Notes under the pieces: generated by a model | What the model was told of the DNA's origin: nothing | What the model saw: the letters and a program-made list of their open reading frames with translations, nothing else | Databases searched by the model: none | In this document: positions 1,393 through 31,843 of the stretch, piece after piece | How positions within the stretch are numbered: the stretch's first letter is position 1 | Layout: every line of letters starts with the position of its first letter | Program-made: the position numbers and the translations under genes | Source: a virus | Lineage: Duplodnaviria > Heunggongvirae > Uroviricota > Caudoviricetes | Direction: 5' to 3' (one strand) | IMG/VR virus record: IMGVR_UViG_2693429774_000011 | DNA: 40,169 nucleotides

Positions 1393-1692
1393 ATGACAAA
1401 AACAGTATCAACCAGTAAAAAACCCCGTAAACAGCATTCGCCTGAATTTCGCAGTGAAGCCCTGAAGCTTGCTGAACGCATCGGTGTTACTGCCGCAGCC
1501 CGTGAACTCAGCCTGTATGAATCACAGCTCTACAACTGGCGCAGTAAACAGCAAAATCAGCAGACGTCTTCTGAACGTGAACTGGAGATGTCTACCGAGA
1601 TTGCACGTCTCAAACGCCAGCTGGCAGAACGGGATGAAGAGCTGGCTATCCTCCAAAAGGCCGCGACATACTTCGCGAAGCGCCTGAAATGA
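1393..1692 (+). CDS. insE: IS3 transposase OrfA (HTH DNA-binding subunit)
   Basis: 99 aa from ATG with GAGGTG RBS; [25 protein letters not shown]... is IS3 OrfA as recalled; the ORF-track GTG start at 1384 is probably spurious. Confidence 0.9.
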
Positions 1693-2555
1693 AGTATGTC
1701 TTTATTGAAAAACATCAGGCTGAGTTCAGCATCAAAGCAATGTGCCGCGTGCTCCGGGTGGCCCGCAGCGGCTGGTATACGTGGTGTCAGCGGCGGACAA
1801 GGATAAGCACGCGTCAGCAGTTCCGCCAACACTGCGACAGCGTTGTCCTCGCGGCTTTTACCCGGTCAAAACAGCGTTACGGTGCCCCACGCCTGACGGA
1901 TGAACTGCGTGCTCAGGGTTACCCCTTTAACGTAAAAACCGTGGCGGCAAGCCTGCGCCGTCAGGGACTGAGGGCAAAGGCCTCCCGGAAGTTCAGCCCG
2001 GTCAGCTACCGCGCACACGGCCTGCCTGTGTCAGAAAATCTGTTGGAGCAGGATTTTTACGCCAGTGGCCCGAACCAGAAGTGGGCAGGAGACATCACGT
2101 ACTTACGTACAGATGAAGGCTGGCTGTATCTGGCAGTGGTCATTGACCTGTGGTCACGTGCCGTTATTGGCTGGTCAATGTCGCCACGCATGACGGCGCA
2201 ACTGGCCTGCGATGCCCTGCAGATGGCGCTGTGGTGGCGTAAGAGGCCCCGGAACGTTATCGTTCACACGGACCGTGGAGGCCAGTACTGTTCAGCAGAT
2301 TATCAGGCGCAACTGAAGCGGCATAATCTGCGTGGAAGTATGAGCGCAAAAGGTTGCTGCTACGATAATGCCTGCGTGGAAAGCTTCTTTCATTCGCTGA
2401 AAGTGGAATGTATCCATGGAGAACACTTTATCAGCCGGGAAATAATGCGGGCAACGGTGTTTAATTATATCGAATGTGATTACAATCGGTGGCGGCGGCA
2501 CAGTTGGTGTGGCGGCCTCAGTCCGGAACAATTTGAAAACCAGAACCTCGCTTAG
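1689..2555 (+). CDS. insF: IS3 transposase OrfB (DDE catalytic subunit, expressed as OrfAB by -1 frameshift)
   Basis: 288 aa, integrase-core motifs, start overlaps orfA stop (ATGA). Confidence 0.9.
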
Positions 2556-2946: not shown

Positions 2947-4498
<1,552 letters not shown>

Positions 4499-4500
<2 letters not shown>

Positions 4501-4844
4501 GGTTTGAGAGAAGGTTCATTTGGGTTCAGAAATCTGGTTGCCTTCACAACGGCTGGAGTAACAAGCTGGACTGTTCCTGAAGAGTTGCGCAAAGGAAGAA
4601 AATGTTACGTCAAAGTTATTGGTGGCGGTGCGTCAGGAGGGATAGGTTCAACAACCGCTTCAGCCGTTACATGTGGCGGAGGAGGTGGTGGGGGCGGAGT
4701 TGCTGAGGGGCTGGTAGATTTAACTGGTATAAACAGTGTTTCGATTACGGTTGGTACCGGTGGTGCGCCTGTGTCTGGTATTTCTGTAAACGGTAAAAAT
4801 GGTGGCTCGAGCAGTTTCGGGACTTACATGTCAGCTTCCGGAGG
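4499..4844. repeat. inverted-repeat unit B, copy 1 (site right half + first 113 codons of the Gly-rich cassette)
   Basis: reverse complement recurs at 7164-7509 (mapping x to 12008-x); encoded 113 aa identical in both ORFs. Confidence 0.8.
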
Positions 4845-5140
4845 CTATAGCGGAGGCCAGCCTTCCGGAGGGTTAGGCGCAGTTGGTGTCGGGGGAACAA
4901 TTAATACATCGCTTGGGCCAGGTTCTCCAGGTTCCATTGCTTCTGCCGCATCGGGAGCTGGTAATGGTGGTTCTGGTGGTGGCCCCGGAGGAGCAGGTTC
5001 ATTCAGAGATACAGCTAACGGAAAAGCGGTATCAGCAGTTGGGCCTGGAGGTGGCGGAGCTGGATTATGTCCTAATTCATCAACGGGTCAGTCGGGTGCC
5101 GGAGCAGATGGCGCAGTTTATATTTACTGGTGAGGTTCAT

Positions 5141-5311
5141 ATGTGGGCAAGAATTGAAGAAAATAAAGTAGAAGAGATAACGGAAATTAATCCTGAAGGA
5201 AGATTCCATCCATCATTAATATGGAAAGAATGCCCTGCTGACACACAGCAGGGGGATTTATATATTGATGGTGAGTTTATTGCGCAGTCTCCGGCAGTTC
5301 AGGCCAGATAA
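5141..5311 (+). CDS. short ORF downstream of the Gly-rich cassette (possible small fibre chaperone)
   Basis: 56 aa, GAGGT RBS 4 nt after the cassette stop; 3' end overlaps the convergent tfa gene. Confidence 0.3.
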   Translation: MWARIEENKVEEITEINPEGRFHPSLIWKECPADTQQGDLYIDGEFIAQSPAVQAR

Positions 5312-5885
5312 CATCCGGCGCGGTGCTGGTATCTGTTGCCGTCACCGCGTCAATGTAATCCAACACCGTGTTAAGTCGGCTGGTTTCTGACTGCGTCAGA
5401 TTCCGTCCGGCCTGTAATTTCAGCTGAATCAGACTAATGGAAGCCATTGCAGTATCAATCAGTGACTGACGCTGTGCTTCTGCCGCGTCTACTGCGGCGC
5501 TATGCTGTGCCTCAGTATCGGTCACCCATTTCTCACCATCCCATTTATCGTATGGCGTTAATGGGGCGATAGTGGTTGTATTTTCGGGGTGATCACCCGG
5601 TGCTGTGATTTCTTTGGCATCTCCCGTTTCGGTGTTATAGACGATTTCACCGCGATGGTCTGGCACATATTCCCATGAATTTAAATCTACAGAACGGCAA
5701 ATTGTATAACCAGCCTTATATGTACCAGGAGCGTCTAAACAGGAATATGCTGGAATACCGACACCCACTGCAAGATATTCAGTTGATGCAGAAATATATT
5801 CCCGAGTTTCACCATCGTAGTTATAGACGGTAATATTCCCCGCCTTCGTGGCAATAAACTCGCTATTTAATACTGCGTTATCCAT
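5277..5885 (-). CDS. tail fibre assembly protein (Tfa / Mu U / P2 G-like chaperone)
   Basis: 202 aa, typical Tfa composition, immediately downstream of the fibre cassette with the RPRN-type C-terminus. Confidence 0.8.
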   Translation of the reverse strand: MDNAVLNSEFIATKAGNITVYNYDGETREYISASTEYLAVGVGIPAYSCLDAPGTYKAGYTICRSVDLNSWEYVPDHRGEIVYNTETGDAKEITAPGDHPENTTTIAPLTPYDKWDGEKWVTDTEAQHSAAVDAAEAQRQSLIDTAMASISLIQLKLQAGRNLTQSETSRLNTVLDYIDAVTATDTSTAPDVIWPELPETAQ

Positions 5886-6406
5886 TATGCAGCCCTTACG
5901 ATAAAGTTAAATGCAATATTTCGTGGACGGGTCTCACTCCCGCCAGTATTACCGATACTCCCTCGTGAATGAAGTGTCGGTGATGGGATCAGACTCCCTC
6001 CTGTATTTGTGGCATCAAGTCCCCGTCCTTGTGTGTATGTTTTTTTGAAAATCGTAGCCAGTTCCCATTCATCTTTTGTGTCGTAACCATCATTGGCAAC
6101 AACAATATGGCGGTGTTTTTCCAGCATCCCAGCCTGAAGGCTCAATAAAGCACGTCCAGCATCAATACCACGCCCGTCATCCCAGCCACGAATAAACTCA
6201 CCACGTAAATCTGGCAATTTATTTGTCGGGTAAGCCTTTGCCAGTTCCGGGTATTCTTCAGCAGAAAAAGCTGCTCCGTTGCATTTCAGCCAGCCTGTTG
6301 GCGGAGTGGCTGAAGGCCACGGAACAGGGACACCAACAGGTAATGCAGAGCCTTCTCCCAAACCAACGTTTAAGAAAATGCAGAGATTATGGCTAACTGG
6401 CATCAT
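5885..6406 (-). CDS. tail-fibre variable C-terminal cassette 2 (canonical fibre tip), currently silent
   Basis: ends ...GSETRPRNIAFNFIVRAA, the conserved fibre C-terminus of P2 H / Mu S type fibres; first 16 codons are read-through of site s2 and the invertase-B leader. Confidence 0.65.
   Translation of the reverse strand: MMPVSHNLCIFLNVGLGEGSALPVGVPVPWPSATPPTGWLKCNGAAFSAEEYPELAKAYPTNKLPDLRGEFIRGWDDGRGIDAGRALLSLQAGMLEKHRHIVVANDGYDTKDEWELATIFKKTYTQGRGLDATNTGGSLIPSPTLHSRGSIGNTGGSETRPRNIAFNFIVRAA
6353..6378 (+). promoter_or_regulatory. invertase crossover site s2
   Basis: TTCTCCCAAACC-AA-CGTTTAAGAAAA; same orientation as s3, inverted relative to s1. Confidence 0.7.
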
Positions 6407-7163
6407 CCCCGGTTTTTACTCAGGGGAATGCTCATGCTTATTGGCTATGTCCGCGTATCAACAAATAACCAGAATACGGAATTACAGCGTAATGCGCTGG
6501 AGTGTGCAGGATGTGAGCTGATTTTTGAAGACAAGATAAGCGGTACAAAGTCCGACAGACCAGGACTGAAAAAGCTGCTCAGGACATTATCGGCAGGTGA
6601 CACGCTGGTGGTCTGGAAACTGGACCGACTGGGGCGCAGTATGCGGCATCTTGTCGTGCTGGTGGAGGAGTTGCGCGAACGAGGCATCAACTTTCGTAGT
6701 CTGACGGATTCAATTGATACCAGTACCCCAATGGGGCGCTTTTTCTTTCATGTGATGGGTGCCCTGGCTGAAATGGAGCGTGAACTGATTGTTGAACGAA
6801 CAAAAGCTGGACTGGAAGCAACTCGCGCACAGGGACGAATTGGTGGACGTCGTCCCAAACTTACACCAGAACAATGGGCGCAGGCCGGGCGATTAATTGC
6901 ATCAGGCGTTCCTCGCCAAAAGGTGGCGATCATCTATGATGTTGGTATATCGACACTGTATAAGAAGTTTCCGGTCGGAGATAAATGAAACCGTAGCACG
7001 TCGTATGCAAGAAGATCGTGCTGCGGTTTATGCTTATCACTTAAAGACTCAAAAATTAGGTGAGTAACGGACCGGGGACATAGCTCCTTTTTTTCTTAAT
7101 TCATCTGGTATTTTTTTTCCAAGATAAAGATTTGCTATTTCAGGTGGGGCTTCTCGACCTTCA
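6365..7163. repeat. inverted-repeat unit A, copy 2
   Basis: reverse complement of 3702-4500. Confidence 0.8.
6434..6988 (+). CDS. serine DNA invertase, copy B (identical translation to copy A)
   Basis: 184 aa; GGGG RBS 7 nt upstream of the ATG. Confidence 0.9.
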   Translation: MLIGYVRVSTNNQNTELQRNALECAGCELIFEDKISGTKSDRPGLKKLLRTLSAGDTLVVWKLDRLGRSMRHLVVLVEELRERGINFRSLTDSIDTSTPMGRFFFHVMGALAEMERELIVERTKAGLEATRAQGRIGGRRPKLTPEQWAQAGRLIASGVPRQKVAIIYDVGISTLYKKFPVGDK

Positions 7164-10395: not shown

Positions 10396-11474
10396 CAGAA
10401 CGGGTCCTCCTGTACTCTGGCTTTTTTCTTTTTCCGCGCGCCGGGGGCTTCGGGTTCAGGCAGATAAGCATCAGGTGGGCCGACACGGATTTCCGTCAGG
10501 GTGCCGTTCTGGTCCTGAGTAAACGTGACTTCCGAGACAAGCAGTTCGGTATTGTCGAAACCACAGACCGGATCGAAGACAATCACCCGCTGGTTGGGCT
10601 GCCACAGCGTACCGTTACCCTGTCGCCAGCCCTGAACCACATAGGTGGTTTCATCCGTCCGCGCCGCCCGTTGTCGGGCTTCAAAGTCCGCACGGGCAAT
10701 ACAGCCTGCCCCCGTAGCCTGCCCTGTCTGCCTGATATACATCGGACGGTAACGGGCAATAAATGCGTCCTCTGTGCGGGCCCGCAGCGCGGTGGTGGTG
10801 GCCTCACCGAAATCATCGTCGTTTCCGGCACGCTGCCCCGCCACCTGGTAAACAGAAAACCGCTCCCGGATACTCTTCTCCGTATCACAGGAAAGGATAT
10901 TTTCCCCAAGTACCAGCGCGGTATGTGCCCGCGTTGAGCCAATACCGCCAATCACCAGCCTGCCGTGCGGGTCGTCGTAAGCCAGTGCCTGCTGCTGACC
11001 GAGTATTTTGTTGATCACCTCAATCACCGTTTCGCCGTGATCAGGCTGGACATCAGGAATAACACCCGACGGCGCACTGTTGTTCACCACCTCAATGCCG
11101 AAAGGCGCAGCAAGCGCCTGCGCAATCTGTACCAGCGATCGTCCGTTAAACTGTGTCGGTTCGGCTGCACAGTCAATCAGGTCAGCGGTCAGACTGCGTC
11201 CGGCAATACCGGTGCTGACCGAACGGGCATCGTAACGAACGGGCGTCGCCTCCACCCAGCCGGTGATCACCAGCTCATCACCAATCAGCACCTCCACTTT
11301 TGAACCGTTTTTAATGCGCGGCTGAAGCGTGGTGATACCCTCATCTCCCGGCCACTGTCGGGTGATCTCCACACTGAAATCCCGCGCCAGCCGTTCAATA
11401 CCGGCACCGATGCGTACCGATGTCCAGCCATTCCACTCCCGGCCATTTACCCGTAGCGTGACATTGTCGTTCAT
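10395..11474 (-). CDS. baseplate hub, late-control-D-like protein (Mu gp44 / P2 gpD type)
   Basis: 359 aa, gene order. Confidence 0.7.
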   Translation of the reverse strand: MNDNVTLRVNGREWNGWTSVRIGAGIERLARDFSVEITRQWPGDEGITTLQPRIKNGSKVEVLIGDELVITGWVEATPVRYDARSVSTGIAGRSLTADLIDCAAEPTQFNGRSLVQIAQALAAPFGIEVVNNSAPSGVIPDVQPDHGETVIEVINKILGQQQALAYDDPHGRLVIGGIGSTRAHTALVLGENILSCDTEKSIRERFSVYQVAGQRAGNDDDFGEATTTALRARTEDAFIARYRPMYIRQTGQATGAGCIARADFEARQRAARTDETTYVVQGWRQGNGTLWQPNQRVIVFDPVCGFDNTELLVSEVTFTQDQNGTLTEIRVGPPDAYLPEPEAPGARKKKKARVQEDPF

Positions 11475-12805
11475 TGCACTGGCACCTTCAGAGGGATCAC
11501 CGGCACAAAGCCGGGATGCGTAATGGCATTACGCCGGATAATGTCCGCGTCACGCGCCGCGTTATCAAACCAGGTCGCCGCCAGCACCAGCGCGGGTAAA
11601 ACCTCATCCGGTGTGCGCTGAATGATCCGTGCAGACTGTTCAAGGCGCGTGTTGATATCCGCATTCAGATCTGCTTTCACCCGGCGCAGCGCCAGAAACA
11701 GCGCATCACTGGTTGTACGGGACAACTCCTTATCAATTGTCGTATTCAGTGTGTCGCGAATGTCAGTCAGTTCTTCCCACGTCGGCAGGTCAACCGTGTT
11801 TTTCACCGCCGGTGCATTGTTCAGTGCCGGATGCGTGACGGAAGGCCAGCCAGTGCTCTGCGCAGGTGTTGTTGCCTGCCCCACTGCGGAATTCTGCATC
11901 ACCGCGGAAGTTGTTGGCGCAGGCAATCGGGTGATGGCATACGCCGCTTCGCTGATTGCGGTCGTACGAAGGGTGCTGGCAACCACATTACGCTGCTGCG
12001 TAGCCGTGGCGGTAGTTTTACTGTCCGTTTTCCAGACGCCGCGCGGTTGCAGATCGCTGCCGAGGCTGACACCGGAAAGCGTTTTGATCATGGTGACCAG
12101 GTCGCTGGCGTTACCATAAAGGCGTTTCCCGGTACGCCACATTTTCTGCACCTGCTCAACGAAATTTTTGCCTGACGATGGCGGCGGCAGAAGTACCGAG
12201 ATATCCCCCTGCAACAGCCTGGCGGCATCCGATACGGCAGAATCCACCACTTTCATCGCATCAGAAACATACCCCAGCATTATGCTGGCATTACCGATAA
12301 CGTCGTTCTGCACGAAATCCGCCACACCATCGATACTGAAACCGCTGAAGCTGTCACTGATGCAGTCATCCAGTGCAGAACAGGATGACATCAGCGTCTG
12401 CGCCGTCGCCGCACCTGATGTGGGGTAAGAGAGTTCTCCTGCTTCGACAAACTTCAGGTCAAAGCGGACAATACGCCCTTCACTTTTCGATGTGCTGACC
12501 CGAACTTCCCCGTCAACACAGACTTTCAGCTCACCATATGTCGGGTGGACAAGCGTGCCGGGACCGGGTTTATTCAGCGCTTCAATCAGGCGATCGCGCT
12601 GGTCAAAGCAGTCATCTCCCACCACATAAGCTGTGATGGACGGGCGGAAAGTGACTTTTCCCAGATCTTCGGTATAGGGCTTGTCGCGGTTCGGGTATTC
12701 ATGTGTTTCCACACGGCGACCAGTTCCCGCACTTTCTTCTTCAACCTTAAACGGCACACCTCGAAATGACGCATCCTGAAGCCTGTCTTTCCACGTCATA
12801 TACAC
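11471..12805 (-). CDS. DNA circulation protein (Mu N / gp43 type)
   Basis: 444 aa, conserved N-terminal FRGVPF motif, follows the tape-measure gene. Confidence 0.7.
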   Translation of the reverse strand: MYMTWKDRLQDASFRGVPFKVEEESAGTGRRVETHEYPNRDKPYTEDLGKVTFRPSITAYVVGDDCFDQRDRLIEALNKPGPGTLVHPTYGELKVCVDGEVRVSTSKSEGRIVRFDLKFVEAGELSYPTSGAATAQTLMSSCSALDDCISDSFSGFSIDGVADFVQNDVIGNASIMLGYVSDAMKVVDSAVSDAARLLQGDISVLLPPPSSGKNFVEQVQKMWRTGKRLYGNASDLVTMIKTLSGVSLGSDLQPRGVWKTDSKTTATATQQRNVVASTLRTTAISEAAYAITRLPAPTTSAVMQNSAVGQATTPAQSTGWPSVTHPALNNAPAVKNTVDLPTWEELTDIRDTLNTTIDKELSRTTSDALFLALRRVKADLNADINTRLEQSARIIQRTPDEVLPALVLAATWFDNAARDADIIRRNAITHPGFVPVIPLKVPVQ

Positions 12806-12807
12806 TC

Positions 12808-12841
12808 CGAAAATAAAAAAGCCACCTATTAGAAGGTGGCC
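12808..12841 (-). terminator. intrinsic terminator after the tail-module moron
   Basis: GCCACC / GGTGGC stem with T-run on the minus strand (A-run on plus makes it potentially bidirectional). Confidence 0.6.
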
Positions 12842-12860
12842 TTGTAATGAATTTTATTAA

Positions 12861-13391
12861 TTAGCGAGTCAGAAACAACGAATCTTTATACTTTTGCTGT
12901 TGTTCATTTAAATACTTAGCTGTTTCATCGCTGGCAAATGGAAATATTACCGTATTTTTAGGCATGGTAATTTCTTTTTTGTCCAGCGTCAGAGTAAACA
13001 TAGGAACATACTGAGCAGAGTAACGCACCGCAGAAACGAGCTCTAGTTTAGACTCTTCAATAACACTTAAATTATCCAGGCTAACTTTCTCTTCATCTTT
13101 TTTCTTTGACGCATTTAAAGTTTTTATTACTTTATTTAATTTCTCCTGAAAATCCTCCTTAAAGTTTTCAGGATTGCCGTCGACAACAAGAATCTGTTCA
13201 CCCTGATTATCTGGAAAAATAATCTTTGCACTTATCAATTTATTTTCTTTATAAACATCACCAAGTTTTATGGCTCCTCCAGATAACTGAATAATATGTT
13301 CATCTTTAAAGGAGATGTTGCCAGAGATTATGAGAGATGAAAAAATAGCCGCTGCTCCAAGAATTACACTTGCTGTGATATAGCCTTTCAT
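12861..13391 (-). CDS. secreted or membrane-anchored protein, function unknown (moron inside the tail module)
   Basis: 176 aa, N-terminal signal-like hydrophobic segment, Lys-rich, AT-rich island; own promoter and terminator. Confidence 0.6.
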   Translation of the reverse strand: MKGYITASVILGAAAIFSSLIISGNISFKDEHIIQLSGGAIKLGDVYKENKLISAKIIFPDNQGEQILVVDGNPENFKEDFQEKLNKVIKTLNASKKKDEEKVSLDNLSVIEESKLELVSAVRYSAQYVPMFTLTLDKKEITMPKNTVIFPFASDETAKYLNEQQQKYKDSLFLTR

Positions 13392-13426
13392 TTTTCGCCT
13401 ATTAACATTTTTCTAAATGTGCATTA

Positions 13427-13454
13427 ATTCTATCACTCTATTTATGACTTACAA
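13427..13454 (-). promoter_or_regulatory. candidate promoter for the tail-module moron
   Basis: minus strand TTGTAA, 16-bp spacer, TAGAAT, about 35 bp upstream of the start. Confidence 0.4.
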
Positions 13455-13482
13455 CCAGCAATACATGTGAGGGGAATCCTGG

Positions 13483-15315
13483 CTACCAAAATCGGGTATA
13501 GCCAACATCGTGATTTATATCAATGCCACTGGAGCGTGTTTCCGTAACCCGCATACCTGGTGGCATATTTATAAATGATACCTTGATCTCACCATCAACT
13601 TTTGGCGCGGTAGCTTTATTAATCATGAAGGGATTCGAGCCTGTGGCATCGGAGGCGTTGTTTGCCTGAGCCGGATCCACCGCCGGATAAGGAGTGTATC
13701 CCCGTGCCGGTATTCCCGTCCCATAAGCATCATAAGCACCCGCGCCCCACTGCGCAGAGTTAATGGCATCGACCGTGTCACCGGAACTGTCGGTAAACCA
13801 CTCAATAATTGGCTTCAGCTTGTCCCACATATCCTGAAACCACTTAACAACCGGCCCCCAGTTATTGATCACCATCCCCATCGGCGACCAGGCAAAAACT
13901 TTCTTAAGGAGTTCCCAGCCAGCCTCAAAATAAGGACCAATGGTTTCCCAGAGCTTCTTGAAATAAGGTCCGACAACATCCCAGTTAGTGATAATTAATC
14001 CCGCAGCCAGGGCTATCGCCGTCGCAATCATGCCAATCGGCGTCATCGACATGATCCTGCTGACAATGCTGATGGCACTGCCCACGCCCATCAATCCCAG
14101 TTTCAGAATCGCAAGACCGGCAGCAAGCCCGACGACGCCGCGAATAACCCGGGGATTTTCATCCGCAAACTTCGTGAATTTTTCCCCCAACTCCCCCAGC
14201 CATTGCGTGATATTTTTGGCGTCACCAGAAAATGCGCCGCCAATAGCCGCAAGGCCGTTAGTTGCGGTCCCCGTCATTGCCTCCCACAGGTTGGACAGCG
14301 TACCAAGCTGTGCCTGAACACGTTTATTCAGGCTGGCCTGTTTATTCATCTTTTGCTGGATCTGATCGTAACCATCCTTTCCTTTATCGATCAGCGCATT
14401 GACCACCTGAAGGGTTTCGGCATCATCACCAAATATTGCCTTAAGTACACCTGTTCGCTTAACGTCGGTAAGTTTTCGCAGCTTTGCCAGTTGCTTAAAC
14501 ATGTTATCAAGACCGCCAAAACTTCCTTTGCCGTCAGTAAAATCGAGCTGTACCCCGAGTTTCTGACGGGCCATAACTTTATTGACGTCCCTGATTTTCT
14601 TAACGCTTAATCCGGACTGGATAACTTTTCGCAGGGCATTACCTGCCGACTCCCCGTTCATCCCCATCTGATCCATCATGACGCTGATGGGGGCAAGGCT
14701 CTGTGCAGCCTGAAGACCGTCCTTGTTCACCATCTTCAGAACAGAACTGGTTTTAGTGAAGAAGGACAACATGTTGGTATCGTCAACGCCCAGATAAAAC
14801 GCCTTCTGGATAGTGTCGAACAGCCCCATCATGTCTTCTGACGCCGTTCCGGTAGCATCCTGCATCTTTGCAGCAAACTCAGCAGCCGCTTCCGGTGTTT
14901 TTTTCAGTTGTACCGCAAGATAAGCTGTCGCTTTACCCACACCGCCAAGAATATTTTCTGCCGGGATCCCCTGACGCACCAGCATCTGCATCATGTTCTG
15001 GAAATCAGCCGTTGTACCGGGTAGCTGGTTACCCAGGCCAATAGCCAGTTTATTGATGTCCTGAAAGCTCTTTCCGACCTCGCCGTTCGCATCCATCATG
15101 GCGACTTTCAGCCCGGTGGCGGCGTTTTCCTGATCGGCATAAGATTTCAGGGAAAGCGTCAGACCCGCTGCCAGTCCGCCACCAAGCGCCAGCCCACCCT
15201 GTGATGCTTCTTCCGCCTGGCGTTTAAATCCCCGGATTTTCTTTTGCATTTTCGACAGCGCGGGAGAAAGTCTGTCGACACCGGTGATCAACGCCTTAAG
15301 CTCAAATTCAGCCAT
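13483..15315 (-). CDS. tail tape measure protein
   Basis: 610 aa, Ala/Gly-rich helical N-half with hydrophobic segments, follows the chaperone frameshift pair. Confidence 0.85.
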   Translation of the reverse strand: MAEFELKALITGVDRLSPALSKMQKKIRGFKRQAEEASQGGLALGGGLAAGLTLSLKSYADQENAATGLKVAMMDANGEVGKSFQDINKLAIGLGNQLPGTTADFQNMMQMLVRQGIPAENILGGVGKATAYLAVQLKKTPEAAAEFAAKMQDATGTASEDMMGLFDTIQKAFYLGVDDTNMLSFFTKTSSVLKMVNKDGLQAAQSLAPISVMMDQMGMNGESAGNALRKVIQSGLSVKKIRDVNKVMARQKLGVQLDFTDGKGSFGGLDNMFKQLAKLRKLTDVKRTGVLKAIFGDDAETLQVVNALIDKGKDGYDQIQQKMNKQASLNKRVQAQLGTLSNLWEAMTGTATNGLAAIGGAFSGDAKNITQWLGELGEKFTKFADENPRVIRGVVGLAAGLAILKLGLMGVGSAISIVSRIMSMTPIGMIATAIALAAGLIITNWDVVGPYFKKLWETIGPYFEAGWELLKKVFAWSPMGMVINNWGPVVKWFQDMWDKLKPIIEWFTDSSGDTVDAINSAQWGAGAYDAYGTGIPARGYTPYPAVDPAQANNASDATGSNPFMINKATAPKVDGEIKVSFINMPPGMRVTETRSSGIDINHDVGYTRFW

Positions 15316-25872: not shown

Positions 25873-26328
25873 TCATTTGAATACAAACGGTTCTGAAAGA
25901 ATATTATGACAAATACATTTCGCCTGAATGCTATTATCTCTCATTCTAATATATTCTTTGTGGGCAACAGATAAAGAACGACAACCGCTGTTTACACTTG
26001 GGTATTTTTCCAACATATGCTCGCATATCAAAAAAGCATTATTAATAGCATTTAATTTATGGCTTAACTCTCGTAGCTCGGCTCTTTTTTCAATACGAAC
26101 ATTACGACTAAGAGATAAAGGTAGCTGTGATAATGCATTTGAATAATCAGCCACTGCCATTTTCAGAGCCATTTTGGCCTTCAGAGCCTCCTGTCGCCGC
26201 CAAACATTCATTGCCCAAAAACCTAATATAACAGTTAAAATTGAACCTAAAGCCGATACAACTGAACCTAAAGCCGATACAGCAGACCACTCTGTTCCCG
26301 AATGCCAGTTAAGTAACGTATGCCACAT
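25873..26328 (-). CDS. membrane-anchored protein, function unknown (AT-rich cargo)
   Basis: 151 aa from ATG with GGAGGT RBS; one N-terminal TM helix then a helical soluble domain. Confidence 0.55.
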   Translation of the reverse strand: MWHTLLNWHSGTEWSAVSALGSVVSALGSILTVILGFWAMNVWRRQEALKAKMALKMAVADYSNALSQLPLSLSRNVRIEKRAELRELSHKLNAINNAFLICEHMLEKYPSVNSGCRSLSVAHKEYIRMRDNSIQAKCICHNILSEPFVFK

Positions 26329-26661
26329 AATAACCTCCACTTAATGAAAAGGTTATTTTATCGTAACTAAGCACCACAGGCACTATCTAAAGATTAGATG
26401 CCCTACCAGTTGTACCATCGATAATCCGCACAAAAATGATACGTAATGAACCAACTGATAACTAACTCTGCTATGCACATTTTTAATCATCAACAAACGA
26501 TTTGTATTAACTTCCTCTCTCATACTAGCCCAAAAGGTTGGGCTAATAATTAATCACGATACATATTCTATGTGATGACATACTTTATGTAAGCTTTTAC
26601 ATTACACTATAGAAGCTGGAGCACCTAAACTTTATGCATCATATCTTTATAATAAATAACA

Positions 26662-28593: not shown

Positions 28594-29400
28594 CTATTTC
28601 TTAATGATGCTATTTAACATTTCTAATGCAAAAAGCAACATGGAGCTAATAAAATATAATATAACCGCACTGGCAATCGCTCCAATTATAGCCTGGACAC
28701 TCCAGTGAAAGTAATTTTTACCATTAATAACAAACTTAACACTAGGAAACAAAAAGTCGATAAGCTTAATTATTAATGGAATAGCAAAGCTCCATAAGTT
28801 CGAAAACAAAATAAAGATACAAATAAATGATAAAGCAAATGCACCATCGATTGATAGTTTTGGCGCCAGTTTTGAGGCTGTCCATAAGCTAAGCAAAAAG
28901 CCAACTGTCACACCTGAAATCTGGATACTTAACATAGTCCAAGCTGTTCTAAAAAATCTAAATTTATTTTTGCACTTGTTAAGTAAATCCTGAATCGTAA
29001 TCCATAACGAGTCAACCCACTCATTATCTTCCGATGCTACAATCATTGTGCTGCTATTTGAATTCCTCTCATCAATTCGTAGCTCCATCCAAGATCCATT
29101 CATCCTGTTAGACTGTCGACTTTGATAAGTTTCAATAGTAAAAATTATTTGATCAATCCTAGTGGCCTGTCTAAAGTATTTCACAAGCTCACCGATAGAA
29201 TCAACTTTATATCCCTTACCATCGAACAAAATAAAAAAAACACATTGAGCACAAACTTCCCTACTTTCCTTTTGAGCTTGCTCATTCATTTTAACGCAGC
29301 GTTCGACAATTGCCGTGCTTAAGCTAATCAAGCTATCTTCATTTATAGAAACACCTGAAATATTCTTGCTTCTGTAAAAATATGACACTTTCGATTCCAC
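28594..29400 (-). CDS. cargo protein: soluble N-terminal domain + C-terminal multi-TM domain, function unknown
   Basis: 268 aa, very AT-rich, between tR' and the holin genes; about 4 TM helices in the last 110 aa. Confidence 0.6.
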   Translation of the reverse strand: MESKVSYFYRSKNISGVSINEDSLISLSTAIVERCVKMNEQAQKESREVCAQCVFFILFDGKGYKVDSIGELVKYFRQATRIDQIIFTIETYQSRQSNRMNGSWMELRIDERNSNSSTMIVASEDNEWVDSLWITIQDLLNKCKNKFRFFRTAWTMLSIQISGVTVGFLLSLWTASKLAPKLSIDGAFALSFICIFILFSNLWSFAIPLIIKLIDFLFPSVKFVINGKNYFHWSVQAIIGAIASAVILYFISSMLLFALEMLNSIIKK

Positions 29401-30081: not shown

Positions 30082-30834
30082 TTATCTCGTCACCCTTCTC
30101 AATTGTGCTTCAGCGTAAGCTTCCTCCTGCCAGCACTTTGTAACCAGTTTATCAATGACATCTGCATATCCTTTGTACCACTGATAATCCGTCAGGTCTG
30201 GTACCAGCTTCTGGACATGAAGCCGCGCCAGTGTGGTTGGTAAACGGCTAAACCGGTTTCCATTGCAACGCCCACAAATCTTATAAACAGGCGTGCCATG
30301 AAGCCGGGTTCTTTTTTCATCCAGGACAATACCTTTACCCTTACACCCTCTGCACGCTGTGCTGACTTCTCCCTTACCATGACAATGCTGACATAGTTCC
30401 TTCACCCACTCTTCCTTGATAACAGACTCCCCGCTTCTGGAGTGTTTCACCACTTCGCGCAATACATTATGAAATCCAGTACCAGCACAATGCTCACAGC
30501 GAGCCTTACTTGCCGCAGACCTAGAATAATCAGCAAAGGCAAAATTCACAAGGTAAGGAATGATCTGTAGCCGGGTTTCTTCACTCAATTTGTTCAATGT
30601 CGGGTTATCCAGTGCCATCGCGTAATTGAGCAGACCTTCAATCGCAAACTGAGGATCCTGAACACCAACTTTTGCCAGGAATAAGGCAAACCCAAGCGGT
30701 GCTTTCGACTGCACCATCCCCTGCGCAGCCATCACATCTGTAATTGTTAAACCACCCGAGCCTGTCGCCGGTGCGTCATCACTCAATTTTGGAGATTTTG
30801 GGGAGTAATATTTTGGTAAGGCTTCAAGGTTCAT
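30082..30834 (-). CDS. late-gene antitermination protein Q-like (zinc-binding)
   Basis: 250 aa from ATG with GGAGAA RBS; CxxC zinc motifs; sits between nin-like genes and a terminator / lysis cassette. Confidence 0.6.
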   Translation of the reverse strand: MNLEALPKYYSPKSPKLSDDAPATGSGGLTITDVMAAQGMVQSKAPLGFALFLAKVGVQDPQFAIEGLLNYAMALDNPTLNKLSEETRLQIIPYLVNFAFADYSRSAASKARCEHCAGTGFHNVLREVVKHSRSGESVIKEEWVKELCQHCHGKGEVSTACRGCKGKGIVLDEKRTRLHGTPVYKICGRCNGNRFSRLPTTLARLHVQKLVPDLTDYQWYKGYADVIDKLVTKCWQEEAYAEAQLRRVTR

Positions 30835-30847
30835 GCTCGTTCTCCAC

Positions 30848-31843
30848 TTACGCCAGTACGCCAATTGCCAGCGCACGATCGATAAAACGAAATATCAGCT
30901 CCAGCTGGGAGCCATACTTCTCTTCAAATGCCACGGTATCCGCATGCAGCTCGTCGTGATGCTTTCTGCACAAAGGCAACACAAAGAGGTCATGCGCTTT
31001 TGTACCCATCCCACCCTGACCGTGGCCTATCAAGTGGTGGGGATCATCAGCAGGCTTTCCACAACATGCACACGGCTGTGTCTTAACCCAGCGCGTGTAC
31101 TTTTCATTAACCCAGCGGCGACGTTTTGGGCGTAACATAAAAGACTCCGGCGACTCCGGATCCACTTTCAGCGTCAGCACCTTTTTCGCCTTATCCTGGA
31201 TGATGCTGGTGGCAGGAACCGAAGGCACAAGGTCACTTTCCCGGGTGACAGACGGCACAACAGGCTTTGGTAATCTCAGTGCCTTACGGGCTGCACTTTC
31301 CGGTAAGGCATCCGCCAGGTCATTACGAATCAGCCACCAGCACAGTTCCGGCATTGTCACAACGTGACTATCATCAAAACCGAGATCCCGACGCACAACA
31401 GACAACACCCAGCGGGCACAGTTATCCGTTGCCATTGATTCCAGCCGTTCCGTGAACTGATCGCGCAGCTGGTTATCACAGTGCCAGCACAGACGGATTG
31501 CGCCCGGAGCGTGTCGCATTGTGGTCATGTTCTCGCTATGCCAGTCGGAATGAGGCCACTGGCAGCCTTTTTCACGAAGTAACCAGCTTTCAAGACATTC
31601 CACGCCACCAGCACGACGGATCACTGCCTCATTGCGGAACACGGCCCGAACAGCAGGATCATCCGCCAGCGGTTGTGATGCCGCGGGAACGGCACCACTG
31701 GCGAAAGATGAATAACGTTCCGGCTCAGGCTCCAGCAGTACACGCCCCTGCATAAACAGGGGCATCAGCTCTGAACCTGGTCTGAACAATACGATCCCCA
31801 TACGCGGGGCTATTTCAGGGGTCAGTAGTGCTCTCACGGTCAC
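30848..31843 (-). CDS. DUF968 / YdfU-like protein with HNH-like C-terminus
   Basis: 331 aa, C-terminal CACCGKP...HHLIGHG...CRKHHDELH. Confidence 0.6.
   Translation of the reverse strand: MTVRALLTPEIAPRMGIVLFRPGSELMPLFMQGRVLLEPEPERYSSFASGAVPAASQPLADDPAVRAVFRNEAVIRRAGGVECLESWLLREKGCQWPHSDWHSENMTTMRHAPGAIRLCWHCDNQLRDQFTERLESMATDNCARWVLSVVRRDLGFDDSHVVTMPELCWWLIRNDLADALPESAARKALRLPKPVVPSVTRESDLVPSVPATSIIQDKAKKVLTLKVDPESPESFMLRPKRRRWVNEKYTRWVKTQPCACCGKPADDPHHLIGHGQGGMGTKAHDLFVLPLCRKHHDELHADTVAFEEKYGSQLELIFRFIDRALAIGVLA

What the first reader, a model, noticed from the sequence alone, without database searches (positions are those of the whole stretch)
12808..13454. Self-contained moron (promoter, signal-peptide protein, terminator) inserted between tape-measure and DNA-circulation genes
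A 176-aa Lys-rich protein with an N-terminal signal-like segment sits in a strongly AT-rich island inside the otherwise GC-rich tail operon, with a candidate promoter (TTGTAA-16-TAGAAT) and a hairpin terminator. That is the classic moron architecture, so it is likely expressed from the prophage. An exported product suggests a surface or periplasmic function (superinfection exclusion, host-envelope or virulence-related).
Basis: partly seen in the sequence, partly recalled or inferred. Interest (0 to 1): 0.45.

Follow-up and report, generated by a model that had tools for sequence, protein, structure and literature searches.

The report
Membrane-protein moron in prophage tail operon
A small AT-rich gene cassette for a membrane-anchored periplasmic protein of unknown function sits at a swappable slot in the tail operon of an E. 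coli prophage; it is a typical phage "moron", most likely a host-protecting extra rather than part of the virus particle.

Summary
A 176-aa ORF (12861-13391, minus strand) lies in a 677-nt island of 34% GC, between the tape-measure gene (13483-15315) and the Mu-gp43-type DNA-circulation gene (start 12799). It has an extended -10 promoter-like site and a -15.6 kcal/mol hairpin plus U-run.

The element is a prophage of the SfV / e14 type that carries a Q antiterminator. Phages SfV, SfII, SfI and 689R6 have the same junction without the gene. About half of roughly 1,100 E. coli genomes with this junction are also empty. The rest carry one of at least five unrelated cassettes: this gene (178 genomes), a signal-peptide protein, a lipoprotein, a membrane-anchored OB-fold protein on the opposite strand, and a PH-domain protein.

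The protein belongs to an unnamed family with no Pfam, NCBIfam or PADLOC match. It is predicted to have an N-terminal transmembrane anchor rather than a lipobox, followed by an α/β domain (pLDDT 91). No solved structure matches closely. Orthologues at 33-59% identity occupy the same slot in prophage-type tail modules of Leclercia pneumoniae and unnamed contigs (family members are recorded from Leclercia, Lelliottia and Lonsdalea), and one lies next to DNA-circulation and hub-like ORFs in Edwardsiella. Distant relatives are stand-alone chromosomal genes.

So it is an accessory gene, not a tail component. Superinfection exclusion, as for HK97 gp15, is the most likely function, but it is untested.

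The parts
12806..13482 (-). AT-rich island (677 nt, 34% GC) that fills the junction between the tape-measure and DNA-circulation genes. This is the exchangeable cassette.
   Evidence: Composition. Alignment with empty-site phages and with SKA5 shows that similarity is lost at the TMP stop codon and returns at the T-run of the terminator. No flanking direct repeats or target-site duplication were found.
13427..13454 (-). Candidate sigma-70 promoter: -35 TTGTAA (13454-13449), 16-nt spacer, extended -10 TGaTAGAAT (13435-13427).
   Evidence: The -10 element ends 35 nt upstream of the ATG. Every orthologue has some promoter-like element 20-72 nt upstream of its ATG, for example TTGTCA-16-TATAAT in L091, but the sequences cannot be aligned. 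Not tested experimentally, and not above chance as a class.
13396..13400 (-). Weak Shine-Dalgarno sequence (AGGCG); the AGG ends 6 nt before the ATG.
   Evidence: Read directly from the sequence.
12861..13391 (-). Coding sequence for the 176-aa protein (the protein annotated as WP_000679479.1 in strain S51, a 'hypothetical protein' of the same length at the same junction). It belongs to an unnamed family.
   Evidence: No Pfam, NCBIfam or PADLOC match; phrog_5485 has unknown function. 77 clusters in an exhaustive HMM search. dN/dS 0.08.
13323..13388 (-). Codons 2-23: N-terminal hydrophobic helix, predicted to be a signal-anchor transmembrane segment.
   Evidence: AlphaFold2 predicts a helix over residues 2-23. 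The uncharged stretch is 22 residues and the mean Kyte-Doolittle score over 19 residues is 2.1. The family median is 20 residues. P0090 and P0096 carry long N-terminal extensions in front of the segment.
12864..13322 (-). Codons 24-176: predicted periplasmic α/β domain (six β-strands and two long helices).
12818..12843 (-). Intrinsic-terminator hairpin (10 bp, 6-nt loop) followed by a U-run. It lies directly upstream of the ribosome-binding site of the DNA-circulation gene.
   Evidence: -15.6 kcal/mol, z = -5.2. Rfam gives only sub-threshold leader/terminator-like matches.
13483..15315 (-). Upstream neighbour: tail tape-measure protein (610 aa).
   Evidence: PF10145, E = 1.1e-26.
11471..12799 (-). 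Downstream neighbour: DNA-circulation protein (Mu gp43 / N type).
   Evidence: PF07157, E = 3.8e-34. ATG start at 12799 corresponds to the 1329-nt gene annotated at this junction in other E. coli records.
30082..30876 (-). Q-type antiterminator of the same prophage. It would explain how late transcription can pass the terminator that sits inside the tail operon.
   Evidence: PF03589, E = 4.5e-53. Read-through itself is inferred from what is known of lambda Q.

Best explanation
The region is an exchangeable one-gene accessory cassette (a moron) in a hot-spot of SfV / e14-type prophages, between the tape-measure gene and the DNA-circulation gene.

**What it encodes.** A bitopic inner-membrane protein: a short cytoplasmic N-terminus, one transmembrane anchor, and a periplasmic α/β domain of about 150 residues. 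It belongs to an undescribed family.

**How it most likely works.**
1. In the lysogen the gene is transcribed from its own weak promoter.
2. Transcription stops at the hairpin in front of the DNA-circulation gene, so the baseplate genes stay silent.
3. During lytic growth, Q-modified RNA polymerase reads through the terminator.
4. From the periplasmic face of the inner membrane, the protein interferes with genome delivery by incoming phages. This is superinfection exclusion, as shown for the unrelated HK97 gp15 moron that sits next to the HK97 tape-measure gene.

**Shown by computation:** cassette status, dispensability for the tail, the membrane-anchor prediction, the family and the predicted fold.

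**Inferred:** expression in the lysogen, Q read-through and the exclusion function.

**Confidence by part:** about 0.9 that it is an accessory cassette; about 0.75 for the inner-membrane / periplasmic topology; about 0.35-0.4 for superinfection exclusion.
For: **Presence/absence at an otherwise conserved junction**
- SfV, SfII, SfI and 689R6 have only 60 nt there; SKA5 has an unrelated gene.
- Among 1,102 E. coli records with this junction, 29 of 60 evenly spaced rows are empty.
- The other rows show cassettes A-E.

**Genome counts among 5,426 complete E. coli genomes** (gene anywhere in the genome)
- A, this gene: 178.
- B, a signal-peptide protein: 85.
- D, a lipoprotein: 55.
- E, an OB-fold protein: 72.
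- C, a PH-domain protein: 28.

**Signs that the slot holds autonomous, envelope-directed genes**
- Four of the five cassette products carry an export or membrane signal.
- Cassette E is antisense to the tail operon, so it must have its own promoter.

**Signs that this gene is functional and long resident**
- Low GC also marks the Leclercia-type (L004) and Lonsdalea-type (L103) orthologous loci that were profiled.
- Orthologues at 33-59% identity keep the same slot in 77 of 81 loci and in L004-L011 and L103.
- They diverge faster than the sheath, tube, hub and DNA-circulation proteins: 53-55% against 68-87% identity.
- They are under purifying selection, dN/dS 0.08.
- A decayed prophage remnant keeps the gene intact between truncated TMP and DNA-circulation pseudogenes.
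- Distant homologues are stand-alone chromosomal genes: beside an IS3-type transposase and a CbtA/CbeA island in Pectobacterium, and among MFS transporters elsewhere.

**Topology:**

**Transcription signals:** a Q antiterminator in the window; terminator; promoter-like elements upstream of every orthologue.

**Precedent:** the HK97 gp15 moron next to the TMP gene encodes an inner-membrane superinfection-exclusion protein whose specificity maps to the phage tail (PMC3594210). Its cassette has the same layout, including a hairpin plus T-run directly before the next tail gene.
Against: - No expression data exist. The promoter is a 9-of-12 consensus match in AT-rich DNA, where such matches are expected by chance.
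- AT-rich foreign DNA in E. coli is often silenced by H-NS (general knowledge).
- There is no similarity to any known exclusion or defence protein: PADLOC gives nothing and gp15 gives E = 17.
- The fold has no informative solved relative.
- The gene is on the same strand as the late operon, so it would also be made late in infection. Its role could lie there.
- Stand-alone chromosomal homologues next to transporters fit a general envelope function at least as well as a phage-related one.
- No isolated phage in the phage collection carries the gene. That cassette-A prophages produce virions is therefore assumed, not shown.
Confidence: 0.4

Rival explanations
1. A lysogenic-conversion factor unrelated to phage defence. 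On this reading the protein is an envelope protein that improves host fitness, for example stress, serum or bile resistance, adhesion or transport modulation, in the manner of lambda Bor / Iss or Lom.
For: - Same cassette and topology evidence as the best explanation.
- Related prophages carry iss, a Bor-type moron.
- Distant homologues are ordinary chromosomal genes beside MFS transporters or in genomic islands, which suggests a cell-autonomous envelope role.
- The gene is retained in a decayed prophage remnant.
Against: - No similarity to Bor, Iss, Lom or any named envelope family.
- No association with host source was seen: carriers come from humans, livestock, wildlife and the environment.
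- The position next to the tape-measure gene and the HK97 gp15 precedent favour a phage-entry role, though only weakly.
Confidence: 0.25
2. A late-expressed phage accessory protein that acts during the lytic cycle. It would be made from the Q-dependent late transcript together with the tail genes. It might mask receptors or alter the envelope of the dying cell so that progeny are not lost on debris (as T5 Llp does), or it might help the phage's own periplasmic steps.
For: - It is on the same strand as the late operon and inside it, and a Q antiterminator is present.
- The promoter evidence is weak.
- It has been resident in the same slot across genera.
Against: - It is dispensable in SfV, SfII, SfI, SKA5 and 689R6.
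- One alternative cassette is antisense to the operon.
- Homologues exist outside prophages.
- An intact copy survives in a remnant that can no longer make tails.
Confidence: 0.12
3. A genuine structural or assembly component of the Mu-type contractile tail, for example a tape-measure chaperone or a baseplate accessory protein.
For: It lies between two tail genes, and 77 of 81 loci carrying it show the same order.
Against: - It is absent from tail modules at 96-97% DNA identity in the phages SfV, SfII, SfI and 689R6, and is replaced by unrelated genes in others.
- About half of the E. coli junctions are empty.
- Its N-terminal membrane anchor would send it out of the cytoplasm where tails assemble.
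- It has deviant GC.
- It has stand-alone homologues.
Confidence: 0.02

Closest known systems
HK97 gene 15 moron (gp15 superinfection-exclusion protein; Juhala et al. 2000; Cumby et al. 2012, reviewed in PMC3594210)
   Same: - A single small gene is inserted in the tail operon directly beside the tape-measure gene.
- Its composition differs from that of its neighbours.
- It has its own putative terminator, a hairpin plus T-run placed immediately before the ribosome-binding site of the next tail gene (searches compared).
- Its product has an N-terminal transmembrane segment (one search compared).
- The host phage is lambdoid, and in the window the prophage has a Q-type antiterminator.
   Different: - gp15 is 62 aa and lies upstream of the TMP gene, in a siphovirus tail operon. 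This protein is 176 aa with a folded domain of about 150 residues, and lies downstream of the TMP gene, in a Mu-type myovirus tail operon.
- There is no sequence similarity (E = 17).
- gp15's expression and exclusion activity are experimental facts. Here both are inferred.
Prophage accessory or defence hot-spots with exchangeable cargo (for example the P2 and P4 hot-spots, PMC13586616; lambdoid moron sites such as bor/iss and lom)
   Same: Fixed boundaries in conserved genes; empty and occupied states; several unrelated cargos at one site; low GC.
   Different: - The cargos here are single small genes. Four of the five encode exported or membrane-anchored proteins, and none matches a catalogued defence system.
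- I found no description of this TMP / DNA-circulation site in the searchable literature. Subscription papers were not searchable.
Membrane or periplasm-located exclusion proteins of other phages (P22 SieA, T4 Imm and Sp, T5 Llp, Cor, Ltp of TP-J34)
   Same: Prophage- or phage-encoded, targeted to the envelope, and in several cases acting on the injection step or on the tape-measure protein (PMC3594210; PMC10883804 and PMC3952083 abstracts).
   Different: No detectable homology: Pfam, NCBIfam, PADLOC and the PDB sequence search all give nothing. It is not a lipoprotein. Its activity is untested.
'Lipoprotein' A0A2H4P829 of Pseudomonas phage ventosus (predicted structure in BFVD)
   Same: The only significant structural match: Foldseek E = 1.3e-6, probability 1.00, TM-score 0.53/0.63 over about 150 columns. 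It is also phage-encoded and directed to the envelope.
   Different: 11% identity; anchored by a lipid rather than a transmembrane helix; uncharacterised itself, so it adds nothing about function.

Membership tests
Moron (as defined by Juhala et al. 2000 and Cumby et al. 2012, PMC3594210) | Extra DNA between two genes that are adjacent in related phages | tested here: met
   SfV, SfII, SfI and 689R6 have TMP and DNA-circulation genes separated by 60 nt, against 677 nt here. About half of the E. coli junctions are empty.
Moron | Nucleotide composition different from the surrounding genes | tested here: met
   34% GC against 52-63% in the tail genes to the left and 45-58% in the tape-measure gene. 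The two orthologous loci profiled (L004, L103) show the same drop.
Moron | Own terminator | tested here: met
   Hairpin at 12818-12843 plus a U-run, -15.6 kcal/mol, z = -5.2. Caveat: the empty junction also has a hairpin plus U-run, with a different stem.
Moron | Own promoter | tested here: inconclusive
   TTGTAA-16-TGaTAGAAT lies 35 nt upstream of the ATG. Promoter-like elements occur in every orthologue. Such matches are expected by chance in this AT-rich DNA. The antisense cassette E shows that the slot can host autonomous units.
Moron | Expressed from the repressed prophage | not testable with these tools
   Needs RNA-seq, 5' RACE or a reporter fusion in a lysogen.
HK97 gp15 / YebO-type exclusion proteins | Sequence homology to gp15 | tested here: not met
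   BLASTP E = 17; 62 aa against 176 aa.
HK97 gp15 / YebO-type exclusion proteins | Blocks genome entry of superinfecting phage | not testable with these tools
   Needs plating-efficiency, adsorption and DNA-entry assays.
Bacterial lipoprotein (Cor, Llp, Bor, Ltp-type phage lipoproteins) | Lipobox with an invariant Cys after the signal sequence | tested here: not met
   The protein has no cysteine.
Sec-exported protein with a cleavable signal peptide | Short hydrophobic core (about 7-15 residues) followed by a signal-peptidase I site | tested here: inconclusive
   The hydrophobic or uncharged stretch is 22 residues (family median 20). It is predicted as a continuous helix over residues 2-23. 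P0090 and P0096 have it internal, after 45-117 residues. These points favour an uncleaved anchor. A small-residue site (IIS/G) is present and UniRef labels one orthologue 'Secreted protein'. No dedicated predictor was available.
Mu-type tail structural or assembly proteins | Conserved presence in related functional tails | tested here: not met
   Absent from SfV, SfII, SfI, SKA5 and 689R6. Stand-alone homologues exist outside prophages.
Catalogued anti-phage defence systems (PADLOC-DB 2.0) | Match to a defence-protein profile | tested here: not met
   No hit at E <= 1 for this protein, and none for the four alternative cassette products.

The most novel reading that the evidence does not exclude
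The protein may be the first member of a new family of inner-membrane-anchored periplasmic superinfection-exclusion proteins. On the same reading, the junction between the tape-measure and DNA-circulation genes of SfV / e14-type prophages would be a dedicated, previously undescribed slot. There, single envelope-targeted anti-phage genes (at least five unrelated kinds in E. coli) would be swapped by recombination between the end of the TMP gene and the terminator T-run.
Probability: 0.3. Interest if true: 0.6.

Novelty: new member of a known kind. Interest (0 to 1): 0.4.

Why it matters
- **Prevalence.** About 20% of complete E. coli genomes (1,094 of 5,426) carry this prophage junction, and roughly half of those hold a cassette there.
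- **Candidates for experiments.** The survey gives a short, concrete list of five small genes, four of them envelope-directed, at one defined site. These are natural candidates for prophage-encoded superinfection exclusion or lysogenic conversion.
- **An unnamed family.** The most common cassette defines a protein family with no Pfam model, a confident predicted fold and no close solved relative.
- **If exclusion is shown.** It would add a new mechanism class acting at the injection step, and a marker for predicting phage susceptibility of clinical and veterinary E. coli.
- **If not.** It remains an ordinary, well-delimited moron.

Tried and rejected
- **Family libraries.** Pfam, NCBIfam and PADLOC gave no hit for the protein. 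Pfam gave no consistent hit for 53 family members. PHROGs gave only unknown-function families, plus a chance-level 'endonuclease' hit at E = 0.014 that I do not credit.
- **Solved structures by sequence.** Nothing below E = 0.3.
- **AFDB Foldseek.** Unavailable.
- **tblastn against 50,697 phage records.** No match.
- **Finding loci of distant relatives.** The broad alignment had no conserved stretch to search with. Two single distant proteins found nothing in IMG/VR. Three metagenomic relatives sat on contigs too short to interpret.
- **Transposon-type insertion.** Rejected: no flanking direct repeats or terminal inverted repeats.
- **RNA element in the island.** Rejected: only sub-threshold terminator-like Rfam matches.
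- **Literature.** Searches for the protein accession, for this hot-spot and for SfV-like accessory genes found nothing specific. The SfIV and SfII papers describe morons elsewhere in those genomes, not at this junction.
Full report
**1.

- The minus strand carries an ATG-initiated ORF at 13391-12861 (176 aa).
- GC in 200-nt windows falls to 0.30-0.37 between 12800 and 13499. It is 0.52-0.63 in the tail genes to the left and 0.45-0.58 in the tape-measure gene to the right.
- The interval from the stop codon of the upstream gene to the ATG of the downstream gene is 677 nt at 34% GC.
It also recovers the hairpin at 12843-12818 followed by UUUUUUAUUUU.
- The hairpin folds at -15.6 kcal/mol, z = -5.2 against shuffles.
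- The promoter is weaker evidence. The 2.5-kb region has 4 promoter-like sites against 3.5 expected by chance.
13483-15315 is PF10145 (tape measure). 11471-12805 is PF07157 (DNA-circulation N-terminus). Further on lie the Mu gp44-type hub, the tube and the sheath.

**2. What the element is**

- The window is an E. coli prophage of the SfV / e14 type, with an HK97-like head and a Mu-like contractile tail.
- In the window I confirmed:
  - a Q antiterminator (30082-30876, PF03589, E = 4.5e-53);
  - an S24 repressor;
  - a holin;
  - a GH19 endolysin;
  - a Pin-type invertase.
- The protein has the same length and lies at the same junction as WP_000679479.1 of strain S51, which is annotated only as 'hypothetical protein'.

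**3. It is extra DNA at a polymorphic junction**

- The phages SfV, SfII, SfI and vB_EcoM-689R6 match the flanking tape-measure and DNA-circulation genes at 96-97% identity. They lack about 620 nt in between.
- Their junction is 60 nt long and contains only a short hairpin plus T-run and the ribosome-binding site.
- Phage SKA5 has an unrelated AT-rich gene of similar size in the same place.
- In an alignment, similarity ends at the tape-measure stop codon. It resumes at the T-run of the terminator, just before CGGAGT-N5-ATG of the DNA-circulation gene.
- No direct repeats flank the island. The cassette therefore looks exchanged by recombination in the conserved flanks, not transposed.

**4. 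The junction is a hot-spot**

The empty SfII junction used as a query finds 1,102 E. coli records (1,094 of 5,426 complete genomes). Of 60 rows spaced evenly down the ranking, 29 are empty. The others carry inserts of several sizes.

| Cassette | Product | Strand | Genomes of 5,426 |
|---|---|---|---|
| A | This 176-aa protein | Same as tail operon | 178 |
| B | 164-aa protein with a typical cleavable signal peptide (as in SKA5) | Same | 85 |
| C | 125-aa bacterial PH-domain protein (PF08000) | Same | 28 |
| D | 225-aa lipoprotein (LLGGC lipobox) | Same | 55 |
| E | 148-aa membrane-anchored OB-fold protein (PF12869) | Opposite | 72 |

- The counts are for the gene anywhere in the genome.
- 179 of the 180 records with cassette A are at least 99% identical to the window.
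- Four of the five products are directed to the envelope.
- Cassette E cannot be expressed from the late operon, so it must be autonomous.
- None of the five matches a catalogued defence protein.
- Every same-strand state, including the empty one, has a stable hairpin plus U-run in front of the DNA-circulation gene, each with a different stem sequence.
- The terminator therefore travels with each cassette. A hairpin at this position is also a constant feature of the junction.

**5. The protein**

*No named family*
- No Pfam, NCBIfam, PADLOC or PDB-sequence match.
- PHROGs places it in phrog_5485, unknown function.
- The word-indexed search found only near-identical E. coli copies and a group at 52-59% identity, some of them named as Leclercia or Lelliottia proteins.
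- The exhaustive profile search found 77 clusters at 50% identity. Nearly all are 165-200 aa.
- Named members come from Mangrovibacter, Lonsdalea and Pectobacterium, all annotated 'hypothetical'.
- None of 53 members has a consistent Pfam hit.

*N-terminal segment*
- Across the family the N-terminus is an uncharged segment with a median of 20 residues, preceded by one or two basic residues.
- Two members (P0090, P0096) have this segment after 45-117 N-terminal residues. That is incompatible with a cleaved N-terminal signal peptide.
- There is no cysteine, so no lipobox.

*Predicted structure*
- With the 53-sequence alignment, AlphaFold2 gives pLDDT 90.9 and pTM 0.75.
- The model has a helix at 2-23 and strands at 33-36, 39-42, 46-58 and 67-72.
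- These are followed by a helix at 74-93, strands at 114-126 and 132-143, and a helix at 149-171.
- The one significant match in the viral structure library is an uncharacterised 'Lipoprotein' of Pseudomonas phage ventosus (E = 1.3e-6).
- My reading is a bitopic inner-membrane protein with a periplasmic α/β domain. This topology is predicted, not shown.

**6. Evolutionary behaviour**

In Edwardsiella anguillarum (41%) the gene lies next to DNA-circulation and hub-like ORFs on a 4-kb contig.
- In the L103 (Lonsdalea-type) locus, two further small ORFs follow it.
- In 77 of 81 fetched loci the order is TMP, cassette A, DNA-circulation gene. Three of the four exceptions are contig ends; the fourth has an insertion of an IS200-like transposase ORF.
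- Against the Leclercia-type loci the protein is 53-55% identical. The DNA-circulation, hub, tube and sheath proteins are 68-87% identical. The tape measure is 36-77%.
- The gene is thus an old resident that evolves faster than its structural neighbours.
- Synonymous sites are saturated between genera. The one unsaturated pair gives dN/dS = 0.08.
- A decayed prophage in strain CFSAN061772 keeps the gene intact between truncated tape-measure and DNA-circulation pseudogenes.
- More distant relatives are not in prophages. The Pectobacterium versatile homologue (30% identity) lies beside an IS3-type transposase, in one strain next to a CbtA/CbeA island. Another (26%) lies among MFS transporter genes.
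- These facts exclude a tail-structural role and indicate a self-sufficient function at the cell envelope.

**7. Mechanism**

*Shown by computation*
- Cassette status.
- Dispensability for related tails.
- The membrane anchor and the folded extracytoplasmic domain.
- The terminator.
- Presence of Q.

*Inferred*
- Each orthologue has some promoter-like element 20-72 nt upstream of its ATG. Examples are TTGTCA-16-TATAAT in L091 and TGnTATAAT in Edwardsiella. The sequences do not align, and the DNA is AT-rich.
- The likely logic is that of the original morons. In the lysogen a weak constitutive promoter drives the gene, and the hairpin stops transcription before the baseplate genes. During lytic growth Q-modified polymerase ignores the terminator. 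This rests on established lambda Q biology.

*Most likely function*
- I consider superinfection exclusion at the injection step the most likely function.
- The best-characterised parallel is HK97 gp15. It is a moron beside the tape-measure gene whose inner-membrane product blocks genome entry with specificity determined by the tail (PMC3594210).
- The HK97 cassette has the same layout, down to the hairpin plus T-run directly before the next tail gene.
- gp15 is only 62 aa and shows no sequence similarity. This is an analogy, not membership.

*Rivals*
- An envelope fitness or virulence factor of the Bor / Iss kind.
- A late-acting accessory function.

**8. Novelty and verdict**

- The kind of element, a tail-operon moron encoding a membrane protein, has been known since HK97.
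- Not described in any literature I could search:
  - this particular protein family;
  - the multi-cargo hot-spot between the tape-measure and DNA-circulation genes of SfV-type prophages.
- I rate it a new member of a known kind, with moderate interest (0.4). It is a clean, testable candidate rather than a surprise.

Noticed in passing
Junction equivalent to window 12806-13482; loci L096, L097, L098, L100 (E. coli) and L001 (phage SKA5): The same junction carries at least four other unrelated single-gene cassettes in E. coli: a signal-peptide protein, a bPH_1 PH-domain protein, a 225-aa lipoprotein and an antisense membrane-anchored tRNA_anti-like OB-fold protein. None matches PADLOC.
   Followed up: partly
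L099 (E. coli CFSAN061772), locus 606-2398: A decayed prophage remnant keeps the 176-aa gene intact (one conservative substitution) between a truncated tape-measure pseudogene and a truncated DNA-circulation pseudogene. A DNA cytosine methyltransferase gene lies next to it.
   Followed up: no
L069 6560-7250 (IMG/VR contig); also hit H16: An ORF resembling an IS200-type transposase lies between the cassette and the DNA-circulation gene in one prophage. In another genome an IS5-family transposase is annotated within the matched region. Both would uncouple the downstream baseplate genes.
   Followed up: no
L103 6637-7330 (Logan contig carrying the Lonsdalea-type family member): Here the family member is followed by two more small ORFs before the DNA-circulation gene: a 119-aa Cys-rich protein and an 83-aa protein with a C-terminal hydrophobic segment. 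The slot can therefore hold multi-gene cargo.
   Followed up: no
window 13405-13420 (minus strand): A perfect 6-bp inverted repeat, ACATTT-AGAA-AAATGT, lies between the candidate -10 element and the Shine-Dalgarno sequence, about where transcription would start. It could be an operator or a small 5' hairpin, or chance in AT-rich DNA.
   Followed up: no
window 28594-29400 and 25873-26340 (minus strand): Two ORFs without any Pfam match (268 aa and 155 aa) occupy classic lambdoid moron positions: between Q and the holin, and between the lysis genes and the HNH/terminase genes. In strain S51 a DUF3800 gene lies between Q and the holin, and iss lies between the lysis genes and the HNH/terminase genes.
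   Followed up: no
window 3877-4476 (minus strand) and neighbouring ORFs 4459-6988: A Pin/Gin-type serine invertase (PF00239 plus HTH_7) lies next to oppositely oriented ORFs. In strain S51, to which this stretch is 94-99.9% identical, these are annotated as a tail-fibre fragment and tail-fibre assembly genes, which suggests an invertible host-range segment as in Mu and e14.
   Followed up: no
window 1689-2555 and 2992-3816 (plus strand): An IS3-family transposase (rve domains) and a LEM-3-like GIY-YIG nuclease-domain protein lie at the tail-fibre end of the prophage, outside the conserved structural module.
   Followed up: no
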